NCBI RefSeq assembly: GCF_004010195.1
Contig: NC_057713.1
Span: 21,143,935-21,207,934, forward strand
Source: Chiloscyllium plagiosum
Lineage: Eukaryota
Length of the DNA: 64,000 nt
Direction: 5' to 3'
Positions 817-52,020 of this stretch are shown piece by piece (within the stretch, counting starts at the first letter, position 1; each line of letters begins with the position of its first letter). Position numbers and translations under genes: made by a program. The notes beneath the pieces were generated by a model, which was given only the letters and a program-made list of their open reading frames with translations, was not told the DNA's origin and did no database searches.

Positions 817-1343
817 ATTAAGACCTCACTGATCTTTAAATTATTTTTATTTTAGTTTATTCTTCTTTCAATTTTGGGTTGGAGTTGTGAACTGAGGACT
901 GACTTTGGAAGATGAGCAGCAGCTTGTGTTAAAAACAACAAAAAAAAACAACAATCTGTAGTAGCTTGTGAGGTCAAGACTGGAAGTTAATTGCAGGTTT
1001 GAACTTGATCAAAAGATTCTCTAGATGATTTGTCATTGAGGAAGAATTGATAGCAGATGTTGGGCATTAACATCTGTACCTGGGAATTGGTTCTAGCAAG
1101 TTTGGAAGAGACCCCATGCTGCAGAAGCTGGTGGATGTTGAACAGTAACTGGGATCTCAGGGAAGATGGTCAGTCTGTCAGGGAAAGCCATAGTCTTAAC
1201 TTAGGTTTTGGACTGTATTTTCTGGGAGAAGGAGCATTTATGTTGATGCCAAGATTTTAAGATTTGTAAGCTCCTGCCAAACCTCCCATTCTCAGACATT
1301 GGAAGTTCAAAGAATAGAAACTAAGTTATAAGTATTACCAACT

Positions 1344-1470
1344 TATGAGGCACGACCTGCCCTTTGTGAAGGGCAGGTCGTGCCTCACAAACCTTATTGA
1401 ATTCTTTGAAAAGGTGACGAAGGAGGTTGATGAGGGGAAAGCGGTAGATGTGGTGTATATGGATTTTAGT
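1344..1470 (+). mobile_element. Young internal CR1 ORF2 (RT) fragment with 5' fold-back and 22-bp target duplication
   Basis: 1363-1470 reads FVKGRSCLTNLIEFFEKVTKEVDEGKAVDVVYMDFS with no stops. Perfect 19-bp inverted repeat 1346-1364/1369-1387. Perfect direct repeat taagttataagtattaccaact at 1322-1343 and 1471-1492. Confidence 0.9.
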
Positions 1471-1904
1471 TAAGTTATAAGTATTACCAACTCCCTCTGA
1501 GTGAGCTTAAAAGGTGGTCCTAATTGAAATCTTCAGAAAATCAACCAAGAAATAATCATATATGCCTGTGGAACAATACATCATTAAAATCACTTCAGTA
1601 ATCAGCCAGTTTTTATATTTTCTTTTATTTATCCTTTAACTATGTTTGTTTGTCTGTCTTTTATGTAAATCATTGCAAATAGAGGGTTATTTTTAAACAT
1701 AGCCTTCAATGAGAATACTTTGCTGTTTATTTTTCTTTGCTAAAGTTACTACATTGTTAATAAATGGCTAAGTATTTATTTAAATGACAAGTTGGTGTTG
1801 AAAATAGATTATTGGTGAATTCTGGGATTGGTTAATTAAAATAAAAAGTCTGGTTGGTCACCTTGGGGTCAATTTTGAGGGTCTTTGAAGATTTTAATTT
1901 TTCT

Positions 1905-4820: not shown

Positions 4821-5170
4821 AAGACTGATGTGGTGGCCATATTTTCAGCATATATTAAACTCTGGATGTTGTAATATTAAAAAAAATGTGAAATGTGTTT
4901 AACCAATGTCTGAATAAGGCAAAAAAACTTTCTATATCACGATCTGTCTTTCAAATGAACTGAAGCTTATGGCATTGCAAATCATCTCTCCACTTTTTTA
5001 CTTAAAGTAAGCAATGTAATATTTAATAAGTATTCACTGTTTGTTTTGTTATCGCATCAGTATCAGTGGTGATAATCTTATTAATATTAATGCAACCCAA
5101 AGGGTCTTATTAATATTCATTTCCATCAGCTATTTTCAACGGTGCAGGCAATATGCAAACATCAACTTTC

Positions 5171-5501
5171 AAACCACTTCACTGTGAGCTAAGCGAAAGT
5201 AAGACCATATTGTCAGGTTCTAGATAATTACGCAATGACTCGTCTTATCATTGTAACACTTCTACCGCAACATCACACAACATGGATGCTTCAACACCTT
5301 CATGGTGAAGAGGAAAGTCAGTGTTACTTGACCTTTCCTTCATCAATAGAGAGAATATATCAAACTGTTTTGGTGTGCAGAATTCTCTACGTGCAATTTG
5401 AATGCAGTCACTTTGATAAAAGGAAAGGTGACATTTCCAATCAATTCACACTTGCATAAAATAAAGCATTCAATGTGTCAATCTTTCTGTCCTTACACAT
5501 T
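5171..5501 (+). repeat. 331-bp local direct duplication, copy 1
   Basis: Aligns without gaps to 6223-6553 (offset 1052), about 16 mismatches by hand count. Confidence 0.95.
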
Positions 5502-5790
5502 CAACTGAAGCAGCATCCCAGAAACAATGACCATGTTTGTGGCAAAACATGACATATTTTGACAAGCATCTTCACCAAATGCCAGCTCTGATGAAATGTC
5601 ACTGGCATAAACATTGAACAGCATTTTTGCATTTGGGACTTCAATATCTAAAACATACAGACAGCCCAAAGCAGACCACAGGAGCCATTTTCTGTGAGAA
5701 GATCCCATAGTTGGCCACCTCAAGATTGCCACCTTATTAAGGATCTTAGGTGATCTCCCAATGTTTCTCACGTGTTGACAATTCTGGACC

Positions 5791-5929
5791 CTAGGCGAAA
5801 GTGAGGACTGCAGATGCTGGAGATTAGAGTCGAAAGTGTGGTGCTGGAAAAGCACAGCAGGTTAGGCAGCATCCGAGGATGCTCCTTGGTTGCTGCCTGA
5901 CATGCTGTGCTTTTCCACCACCACACTCT
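5791..5929 (-). mobile_element. P1 Penelope-terminus element with fold-back and 12-bp TSD
   Basis: Inverted arms around ~5880. Direct repeat caattctggacc at 5779-5790 and 5930-5941. Confidence 0.9.
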
Positions 5930-6222
5930 CAATTCTGGACCACTGCAGCCTGCTCAGAAAAATAGGACAATTCGAGGGCTCCTCAAAACAGAGGCAAACT
6001 CATGGGGGTGGGGAATCTTGATCAAACACTTCAGTGAGAAGCTGGAAGTGAAGATCTACCTGAGGCATTCTGGGGACCACAGGTGTAGCCTTCCATTCCG
6101 GTGGTCCATCTTTCAAGCAAGGGAACTCCAGCTGCTGCAGCCCCACACTCTGCTGCTGACAGGCCATTTCCATTGAGATGGCACGCTTCCCATGTGAAAG
6201 GAGCACCAAGCCACCAAATGCA

Positions 6223-6553
6223 AAACCGCTTCACTGTGAGCTAAGAGAAAGTAAGACCATATTGTAAGGTTCTAGATAATTACGCAGCGACTAGTCTTAT
6301 CATTGTAACACTTCTATCGCAACATCACACAACATGGATGCTTCGACACCTTCATAGTGAAGAGGAAAGTCAGTATTACTTGACCTTTCCTTCATCAATA
6401 GAGAGAATATATCAAACTGTTTTGGTGTGCAGAATTCTCTACGTGCAATTCAAATGCAGTCAGTTTGATAAAAGGAAAGTTGATATTTCCAATCAATTCG
6501 CACTTGCATAAAATAAAGCATTCAATGTGTCAATCTTTCTGTCCTTACACATT
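6223..6553 (+). repeat. 331-bp local direct duplication, copy 2
   Basis: About 95% identical to 5171-5501. Confidence 0.95.
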
Positions 6554-15588: not shown

Positions 15589-16125
15589 AAAAGTTTTCAA
15601 AATGGCGAAGAGTTTGGATCAATTCTTGTCACTTCAATTATGTAATTATGTCACAGATCAAGATTTTGGGTTTATAAAATTTGCAGACAAATTATTTGAT
15701 TACCTGTCAGCAATACTTATTTCACATATGTTATTTCCCCTGCATAACCTATCAGGATATTGATGCAGGATCTTTGAAGGGCAATATAAAGAGTTTGTTA
15801 CAGAAAAGATTGCTTCCATCAGATAGCATGAATTATTAGATATTATATATTCTTGGCAACTGTGATTTCCTGAAAACCAGGATGAGTTTAGTTTTTGTTT
15901 AAAGGACTAAAAGTTATTTGCTTCCTACAGGATGATTGGAAAGTGTAGGAGAAGATTCTGTAAGGTCAGAGCATTGAATAGTCTTTGTTCACATGTCTGA
16001 TTTGGTCATATGATCCTAAGGGACATGCAAGTTGAAACTGTGATTGAGATGGTGGTGTAGTGTTTGTGTATTAGTAATCCTCTGTAATTAGTAATGAGGC
16101 AAATTTTCTTGGTTCAAATTCCACC

Positions 16126-16250
16126 TGGCAAAAGTGAGGACCGCAGATGCTGGAACCCAGAGTCTAGATTAGAGTGGTGCTGGAAAAGCACAGCAGGTCA
16201 GGCGTGCTGCCTGACCTGCTGTGCTTTTCCAGCACCACTCTAATCTAGAC
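16126..16250 (-). mobile_element. P1 Penelope-terminus element: perfect 44-bp hairpin and 12-bp TSD
   Basis: Arms 16160-16203 and 16209-16252 are exact reverse complements. tcaaattccacc occurs at 16114-16125 and 16251-16262. Confidence 0.95.
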
Positions 16251-16351
16251 TCAAATTCCACCAATCAATTTTATTCAAGTAAAAGGGAAAAATCCAGAAT
16301 TGAAATCTAACCTCAGTCATTGTTACTACTGAGTGTCACAAAAACCTAAAA

Positions 16352-25575: not shown

Positions 25576-27427
25576 CCAGTGGTCATGTGCATCTTAAGTA
25601 TCAGTCTTTAAAGATTCACTGCAGAGCTTTTAGCCAAATATCACACAAAGGGTTTTAAAAGCTATTGATTCTGATTTAATGATGTGTGGATGGGTTTTGA
25701 GTGGTAAAAATGAAGTCCACTTTTAGTTGGAACTGGAGGAGCTGGAGTCCTCTTCCTACCTCCTTTGGAATTTGACTCTTCCTGATATAGTACTTGACCA
25801 TGGGCCAGATTGGCAAGACAGCTGTCAGAAATTCATCAGGTCGCAGTTGGTAAGTCATATTGGGACTCTTGTTTAAGGGTACATGGCTCTCTGTTTCTGT
25901 TCAAACGAGACCTGATGCCAAAACAAGGTGAGGACGGTTCACTGAGAAATCATTCTGTCTGGGCACAACTCACAACATTAACTCCACACAATTACTTAAT
26001 CATGGCACCATCAATGTCAATATAGCCCCCAATGTCCTTTTTAATGTAAAGAAACATCAAAGGTGCATGTTTAATTCAGATGCTACACATGTTCTGGCTG
26101 GAGAATCCATTAGATCACTGATCAGCCACAGAGAGGAAAGACCTGACATAATCAGGCATGGTTAATCCTGAAATCTCACTTTCCTGAACTTAATCAGGGA
26201 TTCACTCACTCTGTTACTGTTGATCACAAGGTGAATTTTAAGGCAAGAAGAAATTTGAGTTGGAGAGAAATTTTCGGGTGGAACATCCTTCTTCAAAGCT
26301 TTGTGAGCTACTGTGTTTCCTGTACCACCTAGGTCCATGCCATTTTCCTGTTTGTTGGCAGCAACTATGTTCCTTGCCCAGAAGTGGTAAATTGAATTTT
26401 TCAAAAAGCCTATTAAGACGTCTTTTCAAAGGCCTGAGTGAATCTTACAACCTTCCCACCCCACCCTCACCAACAAGGCATCATGGGCAAGGACAATTTT
26501 CTGCCTCATAATTCAAAACTTCCTGAAAATACTTTGGTTCAAACAATTGCTTTCATTCAGCACCAATTTGCAAACAAAAGTTTAGAATAGTTTATGCAAC
26601 TATTACTTTGTTTAATTTTTGATGGTTGACTTTTACCTAAAACTTTCTGGAGACTTTTATATAAAATAAAGATGTTTGTATAAAATAAAGAATGCAGGTG
26701 AAAGAAAATGTAAAGATATATTATATCAAATTCAATTTATTTGATTCTTATCCACCGAATGTCATAGCTTTAGATGAGCAGTACTAGACTGAACTTCAGA
26801 AGAACCAAACTCAATTAGTTGATAAGTTTCCCAGTGTGCTTCACTACTCTATAAATCTACAATTATATTCGGAGTGTTTATACTACAGTCTATAAAAGTG
26901 AAATTTCATTGGTCAATTAAACTCGAGGCAGGACGATGTCTATCCATGTCAGGGTGTGGGGGATGGGAAAGGTGGTGTGGTTGGGTCAGCATGTAGAGGT
27001 TTCAGATTAGAGGAGAAACAGGTGAGAGATGGGAGATGGATCATTGTCTAGAAAAGTCAGTTGTGGGAGAAGGGTTGGGGTCAGAGGATGGTGGGTGGGT
27101 GTTGGGTCCATAGGTGTCAGGCACTGGGATAGTGGGGCTGGGGAATAGCTTGAGGAGATGTTTGTGGTGAATTGGGAGTTCAGTTTAATAGTTACCGAAG
27201 AACTAGACTAGATTTGAAATCCTAACATTTTCTGGGTAACTATTAAGCTGAAGTGAATCAGAATACTCCAAATTCCCTAGATTTAAGAGATTTTTTTTTC
27301 ACAGCATTCCAGATAACAGAAATTGCTAATTGGAATTTTTACTTTCTGGGCAACTCCCTTGTAGTTAGCCAAGTCACAATTTCCACAAAGACCTGATATG
27401 CAACTCCAGTCTACCCTACCACAATGA

Positions 27428-27652
27428 TCTACGAGAAAGTGAGGACTGCAGATGCTGGAGACCAGAGTCGAGAGTGTGTTGCTGGGAAAGCACACCAGGT
27501 CAAGCAGCATCCAGAGAGCAGGAGAATCAATGGTTCAGGCATAAGCCCTTCCTGATGAATTCCTGATGAAGGGCTTTTGCCCAAAATGTCGATTCTCCTG
27601 CTCCTCAGATGCTGCTTGACTTGCTGTGCTTTCCGAGCATCACACTCTCGAC
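27428..27652. mobile_element. P1 Penelope-terminus element, long palindrome with hammerhead core and TSD
   Basis: Inverted arms around ~27555. Core ctgatga-a-gggc-tttt-gccc-aaaat-gtc at 27563-27590 (CpG-decayed GAAAC). TSD ccc[t/a]accacaatga at 27414-27427 / 27653-27666. Confidence 0.9.
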
Positions 27653-27786
27653 CCCAACCACAATGAACACCTGCCTCTGCAGAAGTTAAAAACATGCTCT
27701 GATAGGAGGAAAAGGTCAAGAGAAAGTTAAAGCCAACAAGATCCTATAAATGTTAGTGGATGAGGAGAATGGGAAAAGAACTTGAG

Positions 27787-48754: not shown

Positions 48755-51276
48755 CTTGAGTGAAAGATTATAGATTTTTAAAAGCAGGTACTCCAAACAA
48801 ATGATACAATACACACACACACATGCACACACAATGTGCATACAAAGGTACCTCCTGCAGCCAAGACGGTAAAGATGTTTGAATTTTACAGCTTTTTGGA
48901 GTGAATTTAGGATAGTGCGTTGTCAGAGTGAAATTGAGTCTGTTCAGTTGTTGCTCTGTTTCCTCTGTAACGGTGAAGCAGACATGTCCTGAAGTTCTCA
49001 GTGAATTATTACTGTTCATCAATTAACTATCTGGGTTTGAGGACCATTGTGTGTGAGAGAAGAGACTGCAATATCCTGACTTTTATTATTCATGTTGATT
49101 TTTCCCTCTGCTTTTCTGCTTAAAGAAAGCTTCTAAAATACATTTTTTTCACTGTGAATGCAACACTTTGTAGATCATGTTCAGTTGGCACCTAAGGGAT
49201 TGGTGAGTTCATTGGCCCATAGATCCTGTGGGTCTCTATCCATTATCACTTCACAAAGTAACTTGAGGGCAACCTGGGTAAACACTGAGCAGGTCGTCAA
49301 GCAGAAATGGTGCACAGTGACCCAGGGTTTTCGCAAAGTTTATGTTTCAGTTGTCTAACTATTCTTTATCAGACCTCAAAAGCAACGCCAGAAGATGGTA
49401 CTCCTACTGCCCACTGTCAGTGACGGTAAACATTTGACTGTAATGCTCACTTTGGACCTACCCAATCATCACATTGGATTACACTTGAATGGCATTTGTT
49501 TTAGAATGTTTTAAAAATAAAATATATCATTTTGGATTCCAGCAAGCTTAGTGGGGAATTTGTCAAAGTCCAACACAAGAATTGCAGGAATCTATTTGTA
49601 ATAGAGGGGGATTTTCCATCCATTAATTTGTATGGGAAATCCACGGGCTTCATCCTCTAAGCACTAACCTTTTACTTCCCGCTGGGAATTTGAGAATACA
49701 AATATTGTCTGCAGTAGTCTTTTTTTCATGTCCTTCTGCCTCCAGTCTCCCTGCAGCGCCAACCTTTCTGAATCTACAGGGAGACAATCTGCTCCTGAGT
49801 CCTTGCCAAAGTGCCTTTATAATTGGTTGCTGGATCATTGTTTGTATAGAAACTTATGACCTCCATTCAGACAGGACGCTACCTTCTGCATTTGTGCTTT
49901 AAACTGTGCGTGCCCAGTAACTATTTGTTACCCATCCCCTTGCCAAAATCTGGCACCTTCTGTTTCCCTGCCCTCCACTTTTTGGGTTAGTTCTTTCCCA
50001 CTTTCGCTTGAAGCAGAAACTTAAACCTGGATTGGTATCTGATGGGCAGAAATCAGGGATTGGCCAACCCACCTGACCTCAATAGCTAATCTAGTTCTCC
50101 CTATCATGACTTGTTTCCTCTCCCCTTGTCCAGTCTCTTCTCACTTATATTTCATATTCTTCTAACTTTCTACATCGATTCCACAATTTTCAATTCCCTA
50201 CCCCCTAACCTCTCACCATGTTCTCTTCACCACAGATGTGCAATCCTTCTATATCCCCATCAGAATGGTCTGAAGGCTCTCCACTTTGTCCTTGAAGAGA
50301 AGCCTGAAAAGTCACCATTTCCCACCACCCTCTTTCACCTAGCTAAGCTTCGATTAGGGTCACTTTCTCCAGTTGAAGGGCACAGCTATACCGTTCCAAC
50401 TATGGATATTGCTTTGTGGGGTATGTGGAACATCAGTTGCTCCAGAACTACTTAGGTGTCCATCCACGACTTTCTCTAGTACATTGACGACATCATCGGT
50501 ACAGCTTCCTTCACTTGTGCAGAAGTTCTAAAAGAGTTATCAATTTTGCTACCAATTTTCAACCTTCCCTCACTGACACCTGGTCCACCTCTGACTCTTC
50601 CTTTCCCTTCTTTGACTTCTCCAGTGTCATTTTCGGAGATAGACTACTTACCAATATCCATTCCAAAGCCACCCACTCCCACAATTACTTTGGCTAAATT
50701 TTCTCACACCTGGCTTCCTGCAATTCTTGTATTCCATTCTCTCAGTTTCACAGGCTCAGTCACACTGCTTCCATTGGGCTGCCTCTGACATTTTCTATTT
50801 GCCTTGATTGAAGATTCTCCCCATCATGATTGACAGGGACATCAGCGGTGTCTAACCTATTCCTAGCAATTCATCGCTCACCCCTTCGCCTCCCTTCCAG
50901 AATATTGATAGCATTCCCCTTGTCGTCACTTTCCATCCCACCAGCTTTCGCAGCCAAAGGCCCATCGTCTGCCATTTTTACCTATCTTGGAGAATGCCAC
51001 CATTGAAAACATTTCCTTCCTTTGCCTGTCAGCATTCTGTAGGGAATGTCCCCTCTGAGACAGCTTGGTCCACTACATCATCATTCCTAAAAATTCATCA
51101 ACTCCCTTTTGCATTTTCCCATGTAATCATAGAAGGTGTAACACCTCTTTTACCTCCTTGCTATCCATTGCTCTAAACACACCTTCCATACAAAGTAACT
51201 ATTTATTTGCATGCTTTCAATTAAGTCTACAGTATTTGCTGCTCACAATGTAGTTTCTTCTATGTTGGTAAGACCA

Positions 51277-52020
51277 TCATCACCATCATGGGTGGTCCCT
51301 TACAAACAGAGATGACTCTTGGCATGGTGGCTCAGCGGTTAGCTCTGCTGCCTCACAGCACCAGGGACCAAGGTTCGATTCTAGCCTTGGGCAACTATCT
51401 GTGTGGAGTTTGCACATTCTCCCTGTGTCTGCGAGGGTTTCCTCCAGGTGCTCAGGCTTACCCTTCCGTCCAAAGATGTGCAGGTCAGGTGAATTGGCCA
51501 TGCTAAATTGCCCACAGTGTTAGGTGCATTACTCAGGGGTAAATACAGGGTAGGGGAATGGGTCTGGGCGGGTTAATCTTCAGACGGTTGGTGTGGACTT
51601 GTTGGGCCGAAGGGCCTGTTTCCATACTGTAGGGAATTTAATTTAATCTTCCACTCTCAGGGTGAGTCCGTAGGTGGCTGTACAGATTGATGCAGCTTCC
51701 ATAGATTCTGCCATACTTGGGGGAAAAGGTGCTCATGGGAAAGGGTAGGTAGGGTGTTGGTCACTGAAGTGAATTTACACATTAGTTTGAAGTATAGATC
51801 AATAGAGATATAGTGGAAGACATTGAAGGGAATATTTCAGCACACAGAGCATAGATACATTCCAATGAGTAAGAGATATGCCTAGGGAGTGACCCACCAT
51901 CCAAGGTGAACGATAAAGGTAAAATAGGAGCAAATTTAAATAAAAAGCATATAATTCTGCAAAGGTAGGTCAAAAGATTGGACAGAATAAGAAAAACAGA
52001 AAGAAATGAATTAAAATAAA
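51277..52020 (-). mobile_element. Retroposed insertion inside the PLE (probable RTE-type 3' end, (GAT)n-like tail) with 8-bp TSD
   Basis: taagacca at 51269-51276 and 52021-52028; tcatcaccatcat tail at the left end. The RTE assignment is tentative. Confidence 0.65.
51321..51645 (+). mobile_element. HE1-type V-SINE nested in the 51277-52020 insertion
   Basis: Full head, V-domain and tail; tctt on both sides. Confidence 0.92.

What the first reader, a model, noticed from the sequence alone, without database searches (positions are those of the whole stretch)
1322..1492. Internal CR1 RT fragment inserted with a Penelope-style signature (5' fold-back + 22-bp duplication): possible trans-mobilisation of a foreign RNA
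Seen: a 127-bp insert flanked by a perfect 22-bp direct repeat. It consists of a stop-free, CpG-retaining piece from the middle of CR1 ORF2, with a perfect 19-bp fold-back (4-nt loop) at its 5' end and no CR1 3' tail. Established: CR1 normally needs its own 3' tail for priming and usually leaves short or no TSDs, so ordinary CR1 retrotransposition does not explain this; PLEs are known to produce inverted 5' copies. Seen: the same architecture (sense piece, fold-back at the 5' end, long TSD) marks the PLE-terminus insertions at 5791, 16126 and 27428. Inference: the PLE GIY-YIG/RT machinery may have captured and integrated a fragment of an unrelated transcript, which would be a route for making hairpin insertions from arbitrary RNAs. 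Alternative: polymerase-theta-type snap-back repair at a staggered break.
Basis: partly seen in the sequence, partly recalled or inferred. Interest (0 to 1): 0.8.

Follow-up and report, generated by a model that had tools for sequence, protein, structure and literature searches.

The report
Tail-less CR1 fragment with snap-back hairpin
A short internal piece of a young CR1 jumping gene sits in a shark-like genome with a hairpin at its front end and a 22-base target duplication; it looks like an accident of CR1's own copying plus ordinary DNA repair at a recurring stop site, not like cargo carried by a Penelope element, although that is not fully excluded.

Summary
Observation confirmed: 22-bp duplication, 19-bp perfect fold-back, 109 nt of young CR1 ORF2 without tail. 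The empty site exists in 3 of 4 runs laid; the filled allele was not seen in reads. The Penelope (PLE) reading is weak. The same CR1 base is a 5'-end hot spot (26 of 1,123 copies versus 9 of 3,047 at two control bases), at the foot of a natural stem-loop. Tailed CR1 copies snap back there too (arms 12, 9, 7 bp). Five tail-less pieces start there, with 22-, 5-, 79-bp duplications, a probable deletion, and one unresolved. PLE-end insertions have 9-17-bp duplications and 30-49-nt tails; this one has 22 and 80. Best reading (0.55): CR1 RNA primed internally at a staggered break, then Pol-theta-type snap-back. PLE trans-mobilisation 0.12; mis-assembly 0.12. Earlier scan notes describe this genome's PLE fold-backs on other DNA; none matched this stretch.

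The parts
1322..1343 (+). left copy of the 22-bp target duplication
   Evidence: 100% identical to 1471-1492; single copy in the empty allele
1343..1364 (-). inverted (snap-back) arm; 19 bp perfect (1346-1364), one mismatch at 1345, 1 nt shared with the duplication
1362..1371 (+). apex: 3-bp stem (1362-1364 with 1369-1371) around a 4-nt loop (1365-1368); all ten bases are donor CR1 sequence, so the cDNA end could pair on itself
   Evidence: donor alignment
1362..1470 (+). 109-nt internal fragment of ORF2 (RT domain) of a young CR1-type LINE, no 3' tail
   Evidence: 1 mismatch to L002/L003; frame; Pfam RVT_1 + Exo_endo_phos on L003
1363..1391 (+). footprint of a natural stem-loop of the CR1 RNA/cDNA; its 5' foot is the 5'-end hot spot
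   Evidence: folds; hot-spot counts
1470..1474 (+). 3' junction: the first four target bases match the donor RNA across the breakpoint, offset by one extra T
   Evidence: chance of such a match 2.2% of donor positions
1471..1492 (+). right copy of the 22-bp target duplication
5779..5941 (-). comparator: PLE-end (P1) insertion, 12-bp duplication, diverged inverted copy (83%), 42-nt tail
16114..16262 (-). comparator: P1 insertion, 12-bp duplication, 44-bp perfect arms, 36-nt tail
27418..27666 (-). comparator: P1 insertion, 10-bp perfect duplication (14 with one mismatch), diverged inverted copy (81%)

Best explanation
A recent, rare insertion made from CR1 RNA by CR1's own reverse transcriptase and finished by host end joining. 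(1) A staggered break left 22-nt 3' overhangs (shown: duplication against the empty allele; the nuclease is unknown). (2) The bottom-strand 3' end primed inside ORF2 instead of at the tail, probably through the 4-nt TAAG match with a one-base slip (inferred). (3) Copying stopped after 109 nt at the foot of a natural stem-loop, a position where this family's copies often begin (hot spot shown; the stem-loop as cause is inferred). (4) The free cDNA end paired on itself through 3 bp around a 4-nt loop and was extended 16-19 nt, as Pol theta does (sequence signature shown; enzyme inferred). (5) The new end was joined to the top-strand overhang through 1-2 nt, and fill-in made the duplication (inferred). 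It is a dead one-off product, not a mobile unit.
For: Hot spot: 26 of 1,123 copies lack the upstream GG at this base versus 4 of 1,737 and 5 of 1,310 at two control bases (Fisher p 6e-9); after removing false hits 24 versus 2 and 2. Ten of those 24 have the CC that a snap-back adds first. Tailed copies carry the same snap-back: L033 12 bp, L159 9, L154 7, L158 5, and L010 11 bp at another site. All arms end inside the stem-loop footprint. Head-to-head fold-backs 3, tail-to-tail 0 at the same motif, as expected for a cDNA 3' end (small numbers). Five tail-less pieces start here with unlike target changes: 22 bp, 5 bp (L162 = L032), 79 bp (L177), a probable target deletion (L169), unresolved (L161); one nuclease stagger does not give this spread. 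Internal CR1 pieces are joined at different points to a CR1-tailed non-autonomous element in L166, L170, L176 and in 5 of 12 further copies. Pol theta extends stem-loops from two terminal pairs and leaves inverted repeats (PMC11292364, abstract and passages); snap-back is a described 5' junction class of R2 insertions (PMC11371274, passages).
Against: Tailed CR1 copies seldom have long duplications (0 of 16 at 7 nt or more; longest 11 nt), so the 22-nt stagger is not CR1's usual cut. The two longest arms (19, 20 bp) are both in tail-less pieces and begin within 1-2 nt of each other, which fits priming of both strands as well as snap-back. The 3' microhomology is out of register by one base, and L162, L177 and L169 show none. 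The chimeras could be internal deletions of one composite transcript rather than switches between two RNAs. The stem-loop is modest (RNA z -1.4 to -2.2; DNA z -2.5 and -3.5), and the snap-back that its own long stem would give was not found (0). The filled allele is unseen in reads.
Confidence: 0.55

Rival explanations
1. PLE trans-mobilisation: a Penelope-like GIY-YIG/RT protein cut both strands and primed both ends internally on CR1 RNA that has no PLE terminus, giving inverted copy + tail + long duplication.
For: 9 of 11 hairpins with a duplication in 609 kb are PLE-type ends. P1 is a PLE end: L046 joins it to a PLE-type RT and it carries a hammerhead-like core (motif recalled). The anole PLE protein nicks and extends both strands and starts internally in an AC-rich stem-loop without target homology (PMC11167929, parts 1-2 of 4); the CR1 arm start lies in an AC-rich stem-loop strand. 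Both long-armed cases are tail-less and start their arms at nearly the same base.
Against: 22 bp exceeds all 37 perfect P1 duplications (9-17; 26 of 63 ends unresolved, and values under 9 were not sought). G at -2 in 22 of 37 P1 sites (background 21%), absent here; no G at -3..-1 in 8 of 37 (background 51%). Tails 30-49 nt in 20 of 22, here 80 and 20 in L162. Same apex in tailed CR1. In rotifer PLEs the terminal repeats are the cis requirement for trans-mobilisation (PMC3846280, passages); none is present. No other cargo: 0 in 609 kb, 0 of 18 SINE fold-backs.
Confidence: 0.12
2. No RNA step at this site: Pol-theta-type repair copied 109 nt from CR1 DNA (a genomic copy or a free cDNA) into a break, then snapped back.
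For: Short inverted templated inserts inside otherwise intact SINEs are present (about 6 of 18 loci); L154 has a 71-nt copy from 750 bp upstream at its junction. Unlike duplication lengths fit repair.
Against: No near-identical donor in the window or the 80 kb fetched beside it (best 70-77% over the length). The 5' end coincides with the hot spot of tailed retrotransposed copies. Fold-back polarity is 3 to 0.
Confidence: 0.12
3. Mis-assembly of a heterozygous, longer CR1 insertion: real 5' junction and hairpin, false 3' junction and duplication.
For: Filled allele not seen in 4 runs laid; no indexed run exceeds the share expected for an empty-only sample; 22 + 127 = 149, close to a 150-nt read; young CR1 copies are often gapped in this assembly.
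Against: No N at the junction while unresolved copies keep N gaps (median 451 nt of 55 runs). The other tail-less cases have different duplication and span lengths. The offset 4-nt match at the 3' junction has a 2.2% chance. A very young private allele would also be missing from other animals.
Confidence: 0.12
4. Tail-less retroposition by another LINE (L1-, Tx1- or RTE-type) whose cut gives long duplications.
For: Tailless retropseudogenes are internally primed, have target complementarity at their 3' end and 8-35-nt duplications (PMC5322556, passages); 22 bp fits.
Against: The target is not TT/WAAAA-like (AC/TAAG; CT/AAG if shifted by one). No L1 ORF1 match was found, but that search had no working control. 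That paper ties the class to relaxed L1 of therians and lizards.
Confidence: 0.06

Closest known systems
Tailless retropseudogenes / internally primed LINE products (Noll et al. 2015, PMC5322556)
   Same: 3'-truncated RNA copy without tail, long target duplication, short target-RNA complementarity at the 3' end
   Different: Cargo is the LINE's own ORF2; complementarity is offset by one base; not A-rich; carries a 5' snap-back; the driver is probably CR1, not L1
Snap-back 5' junctions of R2 insertions (Zhang et al. 2024, PMC11371274; Palm et al. listing PMC11331408) and Pol theta stem-loop extension (Carvajal-Maldonado et al. 2024, PMC11292364)
   Same: cDNA 3' end primes on itself through 2-3 bp, leaving an inverted copy fused to the upstream target
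   Different: Natural germ-line product of a CR1, concentrated at one internal stem-loop, with a 22-bp duplication and no 3' module
Insertions of endonuclease-bearing Penelope-like elements: inverted pLTR + tail + TSD (Arkhipova et al. 2013, PMC3846280; Frangieh et al. 2024, PMC11167929)
   Same: Overall layout: duplication, inverted 5' copy, sense copy with an unpaired 3' part, duplication; no poly(A)
   Different: No PLE terminus or hammerhead; duplication 22 versus 9-17; unpaired part 80 versus 30-49 nt; no G at -2
L1 twin priming with overlapping cDNAs (PMC12016303)
   Same: 5' inversion whose sequence overlaps the sense part (median overlap 12 bp there), with target duplication
   Different: There the sense part is primed at the poly(A) tail; here it is primed internally and the inversion is fully contained in the sense part

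Membership tests
Canonical tail-primed CR1 insertion | sequence derives from an APE-endonuclease/RT LINE of CR1 type | tested here: met
Canonical tail-primed CR1 insertion | 3' end is the element's tandem-repeat tail | tested here: not met
   ends about 1,130 nt upstream of the tail
Canonical tail-primed CR1 insertion | short or no target duplication | tested here: not met
   22 bp versus 0 of 16 at 7 nt or more and at most 11 nt in 17 tailed hot-spot copies
PLE (P1) insertion or PLE trans-mobilised cargo | PLE terminal repeat (pLTR / hammerhead end) in cis | tested here: not met
   the whole 127 nt is CR1 sense or its inverted copy
PLE (P1) insertion or PLE trans-mobilised cargo | inverted copy starting at the left duplication | tested here: met
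   (22 of 37 P1 inserts have it)
PLE (P1) insertion or PLE trans-mobilised cargo | 30-40-nt tail between the two initiation sites | tested here: not met
   80 nt here, 20 in L162; P1 30-49 in 20 of 22
PLE (P1) insertion or PLE trans-mobilised cargo | duplication length and target preference of the local family | tested here: not met
   22 versus 9-17 in 37; no G at -2 versus 22 of 37; other PLE families of this genome were barely sampled
PLE (P1) insertion or PLE trans-mobilised cargo | made by PLE RT/GIY-YIG protein | not testable with these tools
   needs biochemistry
Tailless retropseudogene | 3'-truncated, no tail, 8-35-nt duplication | tested here: met
Tailless retropseudogene | target complementary to the RNA at the 3' end | tested here: inconclusive
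   4-nt match offset by one base; 2.2% by chance
Tailless retropseudogene | L1-type target (TT/WAAAA) and an active relaxed L1 | tested here: inconclusive
   target does not fit; L1 ORF1 search without working control
Snap-back (stem-loop extension) 5' junction | inverted copy adjacent to the cDNA end, primed by 2-3 terminal pairs of donor sequence around a short loop | tested here: met
   3-bp stem, 4-nt loop, all donor sequence; 2-bp stem, 5-nt loop in L162
Snap-back (stem-loop extension) 5' junction | dependence on Pol theta | not testable with these tools
   needs POLQ-deficient cells; joining of two cDNAs gives the same sequence

The most novel reading that the evidence does not exclude
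A Penelope-like protein recognises an AC-rich stem-loop inside CR1 RNA as a decoy initiation site, primes both cut strands on it without any PLE terminus, and writes short hairpin insertions from a foreign RNA; the window insert and L162, whose long arms start at nearly the same base, are two such products.
Probability: 0.12. Interest if true: 0.7.

Novelty: new variant of a known kind. Interest (0 to 1): 0.3.

Why it matters
As best explained it is a by-product, but an informative one: one CR1 position collects about 2% of all 5' ends of the copies that cover it (8- to 16-fold over controls), and shows a graded series of snap-backs, tail-less pieces and chimeras. This gives a natural test case for how RNA/cDNA structure and Pol-theta-type repair set LINE 5' ends, and shows that a supposedly tail-dependent LINE RNA can be copied from internal positions. 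It also warns that 'fold-back + duplication' alone does not identify the enzyme. If the PLE reading were true, PLEs would be a route to hairpin insertions from RNAs without a PLE terminus, which I did not find described (searches).

Tried and rejected
Mobile mini-element: rejected; the insert with its arm matches once in the genome, all other 39 listed places lack the arm. Fold-back as a general feature of CR1: three other positions gave 0, 0, 0; a degenerate pattern at the same site gave only the 2 known long arms. Snap-back through the long natural stem: 0. SINE cargo: 18 fold-back hits, none a tail-less piece with a duplication. Other non-PLE hairpins (L098:5595-5672, L086:2188-2218) have no duplication. 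A 22-bp repeat in L102 is a short copy inside an old LINE, not a target duplication. Local DNA donor: none. Hot spot at the 3' breakpoint: 1 other copy ends there under a strict pattern that excludes the window's own junction. Organism B (run X9): contigs stop at 1322 and resume at 1513, so no verdict on its allele. Word shares under 0.9 were used only as a consistency check. L1 presence: uninformative. One search had a faulty pattern and was redone; only its background figures are used. In one search inverted copies were sought by BLAST, which misses arms under about 20 nt. Supplements of the papers were not opened; those of PMC11167929 (initiation sites) may bear on the PLE rival.

Full report
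1. Observation. The window holds a perfect 22-nt direct repeat at 1322-1343 and 1471-1492 around 127 nt. The first 21 nt of the insert are an inverted copy of what follows: 19 bp perfect (1346-1364 with 1369-1387), 4-nt loop, extendable to 22 bp with one mismatch; the fold has z = -7.2. 1362-1470 is a stop-free piece of an RT frame, 1 nt from the closest of 61 fetched copies covering it. Donor L003 has an open APE-endonuclease/RT frame; the family ends in a (TTCTATG)n tail about 1,130 nt further on. A genome search with the insert listed 40 places of 942 candidates (40 scored); only the window's place has the arm.

2. Is it an insertion, and is it real? Of 4 runs laid, X5 and X16 have contigs that skip 1322-1470 cleanly (149 nt, 22 letters fit either side) and X19 has one such read; X9 (another organism) does not bridge the site. 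So the 22-mer is single in the empty allele. No listed piece shows the filled junctions; the table shows only part of the pieces, so this is not proof of absence. 78 of 771 31-mers of 1000-1800 are specific to the filled allele (expected share for an empty-only sample 0.899); the best of 18 holder runs is 0.88. The allele is therefore rare or private, or mis-assembled. The span 149 is close to a read length. Against an artefact: no N at the junction although unresolved repeats keep gaps, a second case of the same build with other lengths (L162), and a 4-nt target-donor match at the 3' junction (2.2% of donor positions).

3. The comparators. L046 links this end to a PLE-type RT frame (RVT_1 E 5.5e-4, below the curated cut-off), and the end carries a hammerhead-like core (motif recalled). 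Their duplications are 12, 12 and 10 nt (14 with one mismatch). Of 63 P1 ends in all fetched DNA, 37 have a perfect duplication of 9 nt or more: range 9-17; 26 were unresolved. 22 of 37 have an inverted 5' copy, with 30-49-nt tails in 20 of 22; 22 of 37 have G two bases before the duplication (background G 21%). The CR1 insert has 22 nt, an 80-nt unpaired part and no G at -4..-1. In 609 kb (window, 400 kb of sampled genome and search loci), 32 hairpins were found, 11 with a flanking repeat: 9 PLE-type ends (7 P1, 2 other hammerhead-motif families judged by eye), 1 small tandem repeat, and this insert. So the layout is PLE-like, the parameters are not, and no second non-PLE cargo turned up.

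4. What CR1 does by itself. Of 29 tailed young copies, 16 had both ends resolved; none had an adjacent duplication of 7 nt or more. A fold-back pattern at the insert's own motif found 3 places in the genome: the window, L032 (tail-less, 44 nt, 19-20-bp arm, strictly a 5-bp duplication) and L033, an ordinary tailed copy with a 12-bp arm and no long duplication. The tail-to-tail control gave 0; three other CR1 positions gave 0 each.

5. A 5'-end hot spot. 26 copies lack the two upstream G at exactly this base against 1,097 that read through. Two control bases, one also at a T run, gave 4 against 1,733 and 5 against 1,305: 2.3% versus 0.3%, p 6e-9. Dropping false hits (L164, L171; L180, L182; L183, L184, L185, which are indels or other subfamilies) leaves 24 versus 2 and 2, p 1e-10. 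With L033 there are 25 true starts: 17 tailed, 1 probably tailed, 2 unresolved at gaps, 5 tail-less (my classification). Ten of the 24 begin with the CC a snap-back adds first; arms are 4-20 bp, in tailed copies up to 12 (L033), 9 (L159), 7 (L154). Tailed copies have duplications up to 11 nt (L160). The tail-less five are the window (109 nt, 22-bp duplication), L162 = L032 (44 nt, 5 bp), L177 (50 nt, 79 bp, no arm), L169 (320 nt, probable target deletion, judged by eye) and L161 (147 nt behind an inverted CR1 segment, left end in a gap). L187 is a further tail-less piece at a control base, without duplication. The hot-spot base is the 5' foot of a natural stem-loop of the donor (RNA z -1.4 to -2.2, cDNA z -2.5 and -3.5), and all arms end inside its footprint. 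Several subfamilies share the start, so it is not one source copy.

6. Internal landing on CR1 RNA. L166, L170 and L176 start at the hot spot, run 128, 256 and 483 nt of CR1 and then join, each at a different point, a non-CR1 sequence that ends in the CR1 tail. That sequence is a very young, high-copy non-autonomous element (40 of 40 scored places 100% identical over 261 nt, 907 candidates). Of 12 of those 40 places fetched, 5 have an internal young-CR1 piece joined upstream at different points. The simplest reading is template switching of a cDNA end onto internal CR1 RNA; internal deletion of a composite transcript is not excluded. Either way the premise that CR1 sequence can only be copied from its tail does not hold here.

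7. Other cargo. Two SINE fold-back patterns gave 18 places. They are large head-to-head duplications, short inverted inserts inside intact SINEs, tandem arrays, or tailed 5'-inverted copies; none is a tail-less piece with a duplication.

8. Mechanism. Shown: target duplication; internal 3' end; 5' end at a hot spot shared with tailed copies; an apex made of donor sequence with a 3-bp stem. Inferred: priming on CR1 RNA through the offset TAAG match, release of the cDNA end at the stem-loop, Pol-theta-type extension, joining by 1-2 nt, fill-in. Unknown: who made the 22-nt stagger; a PLE endonuclease cut that was captured by a CR1 particle is possible and would count under this reading. Two cDNAs primed from both target ends and joined at the 3-bp match would give the same sequence; this is what keeps the PLE reading alive, since the anole PLE protein extends both strands from internal sites in an AC-rich stem-loop and the two long arms are both in tail-less pieces.

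9. Literature seen. PMC11167929: parts 1-2 of 4 of the text. Passages only: PMC3846280, PMC11371274, PMC11331408, PMC12016303, PMC5322556, PMC4760211 (second-strand cut position is LINE-specific, about 15 bp for L1 and 5 bp for ZfL2-1), PMC13343379 (CR1-group content of sharks, nothing on duplications in the passages). PMC11292364: abstract, outline, passages. No supplements. Nine searches listed no paper on tail-less snap-back CR1 fragments or on PLE mobilisation of RNA without a PLE terminus; only listings were seen and subscription journals are mostly missing.

10. Verdict. Real in the assembly and probably a very young, rare insertion. It works like a tailless retrocopy with a snap-back 5' junction; it resembles a PLE insertion in layout but fails the PLE membership tests that could be run. 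New variant of a known kind; interest 0.3. The PLE trans-mobilisation reading keeps about 0.12.

Noticed in passing
L166, L170, L176, L189-L200; places listed: A very young, high-copy non-autonomous element: over 1 kb of non-CR1 sequence ending in the last ~150 nt and tail of the young CR1; 40 of 40 scored copies are identical over 261 nt, and 5 of 12 sampled carry internal CR1 pieces joined upstream.
   Followed up: partly
window 1362-1363 and L154-L178, L002, L033: 5'-end hot spot of the young CR1 at the foot of a natural stem-loop, 8- to 16-fold over two control bases.
   Followed up: yes
L177 (- strand), about 261-473: 50-nt tail-less CR1 piece flanked by a perfect 79-bp duplication on a 1.2-kb contig.
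   Followed up: partly
P1 insertion sites: G two bases before the duplication in 22 of 37 PLE-end insertions (background 21%): a possible endonuclease preference.
   Followed up: partly
L141 and L148, centre about 1520: Head-to-head SINE halves whose inverted duplication runs on into the flanking DNA: large fold-back palindromes centred in a SINE.
   Followed up: no
L098:5595-5672: Perfect 35-bp hairpin with an 8-nt loop in AT-rich non-PLE sequence, no clear duplication, 40 bp from a P1 insertion.
   Followed up: partly
L154:678-748 and 1428-1498: 71-nt exact copy of DNA from 750 bp upstream placed at the 5' junction of a tailed CR1, next to a 7-bp snap-back.
   Followed up: partly
window 5170-5500 and 6222-6552: 331-bp direct duplication, 95% identical, 1.05 kb apart, enclosing the P1 insertion at 5779-5941.
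   Followed up: no
window 50090-51300: Decayed PLE-type RT region (translated similarity to L046), followed by a SINE at about 51319-51635.
   Followed up: partly
L084:4727-4887 and L096:2246-2322: Fold-back insertions of two further hammerhead-motif repeat families besides P1 (13-bp duplication in L084).
   Followed up: no
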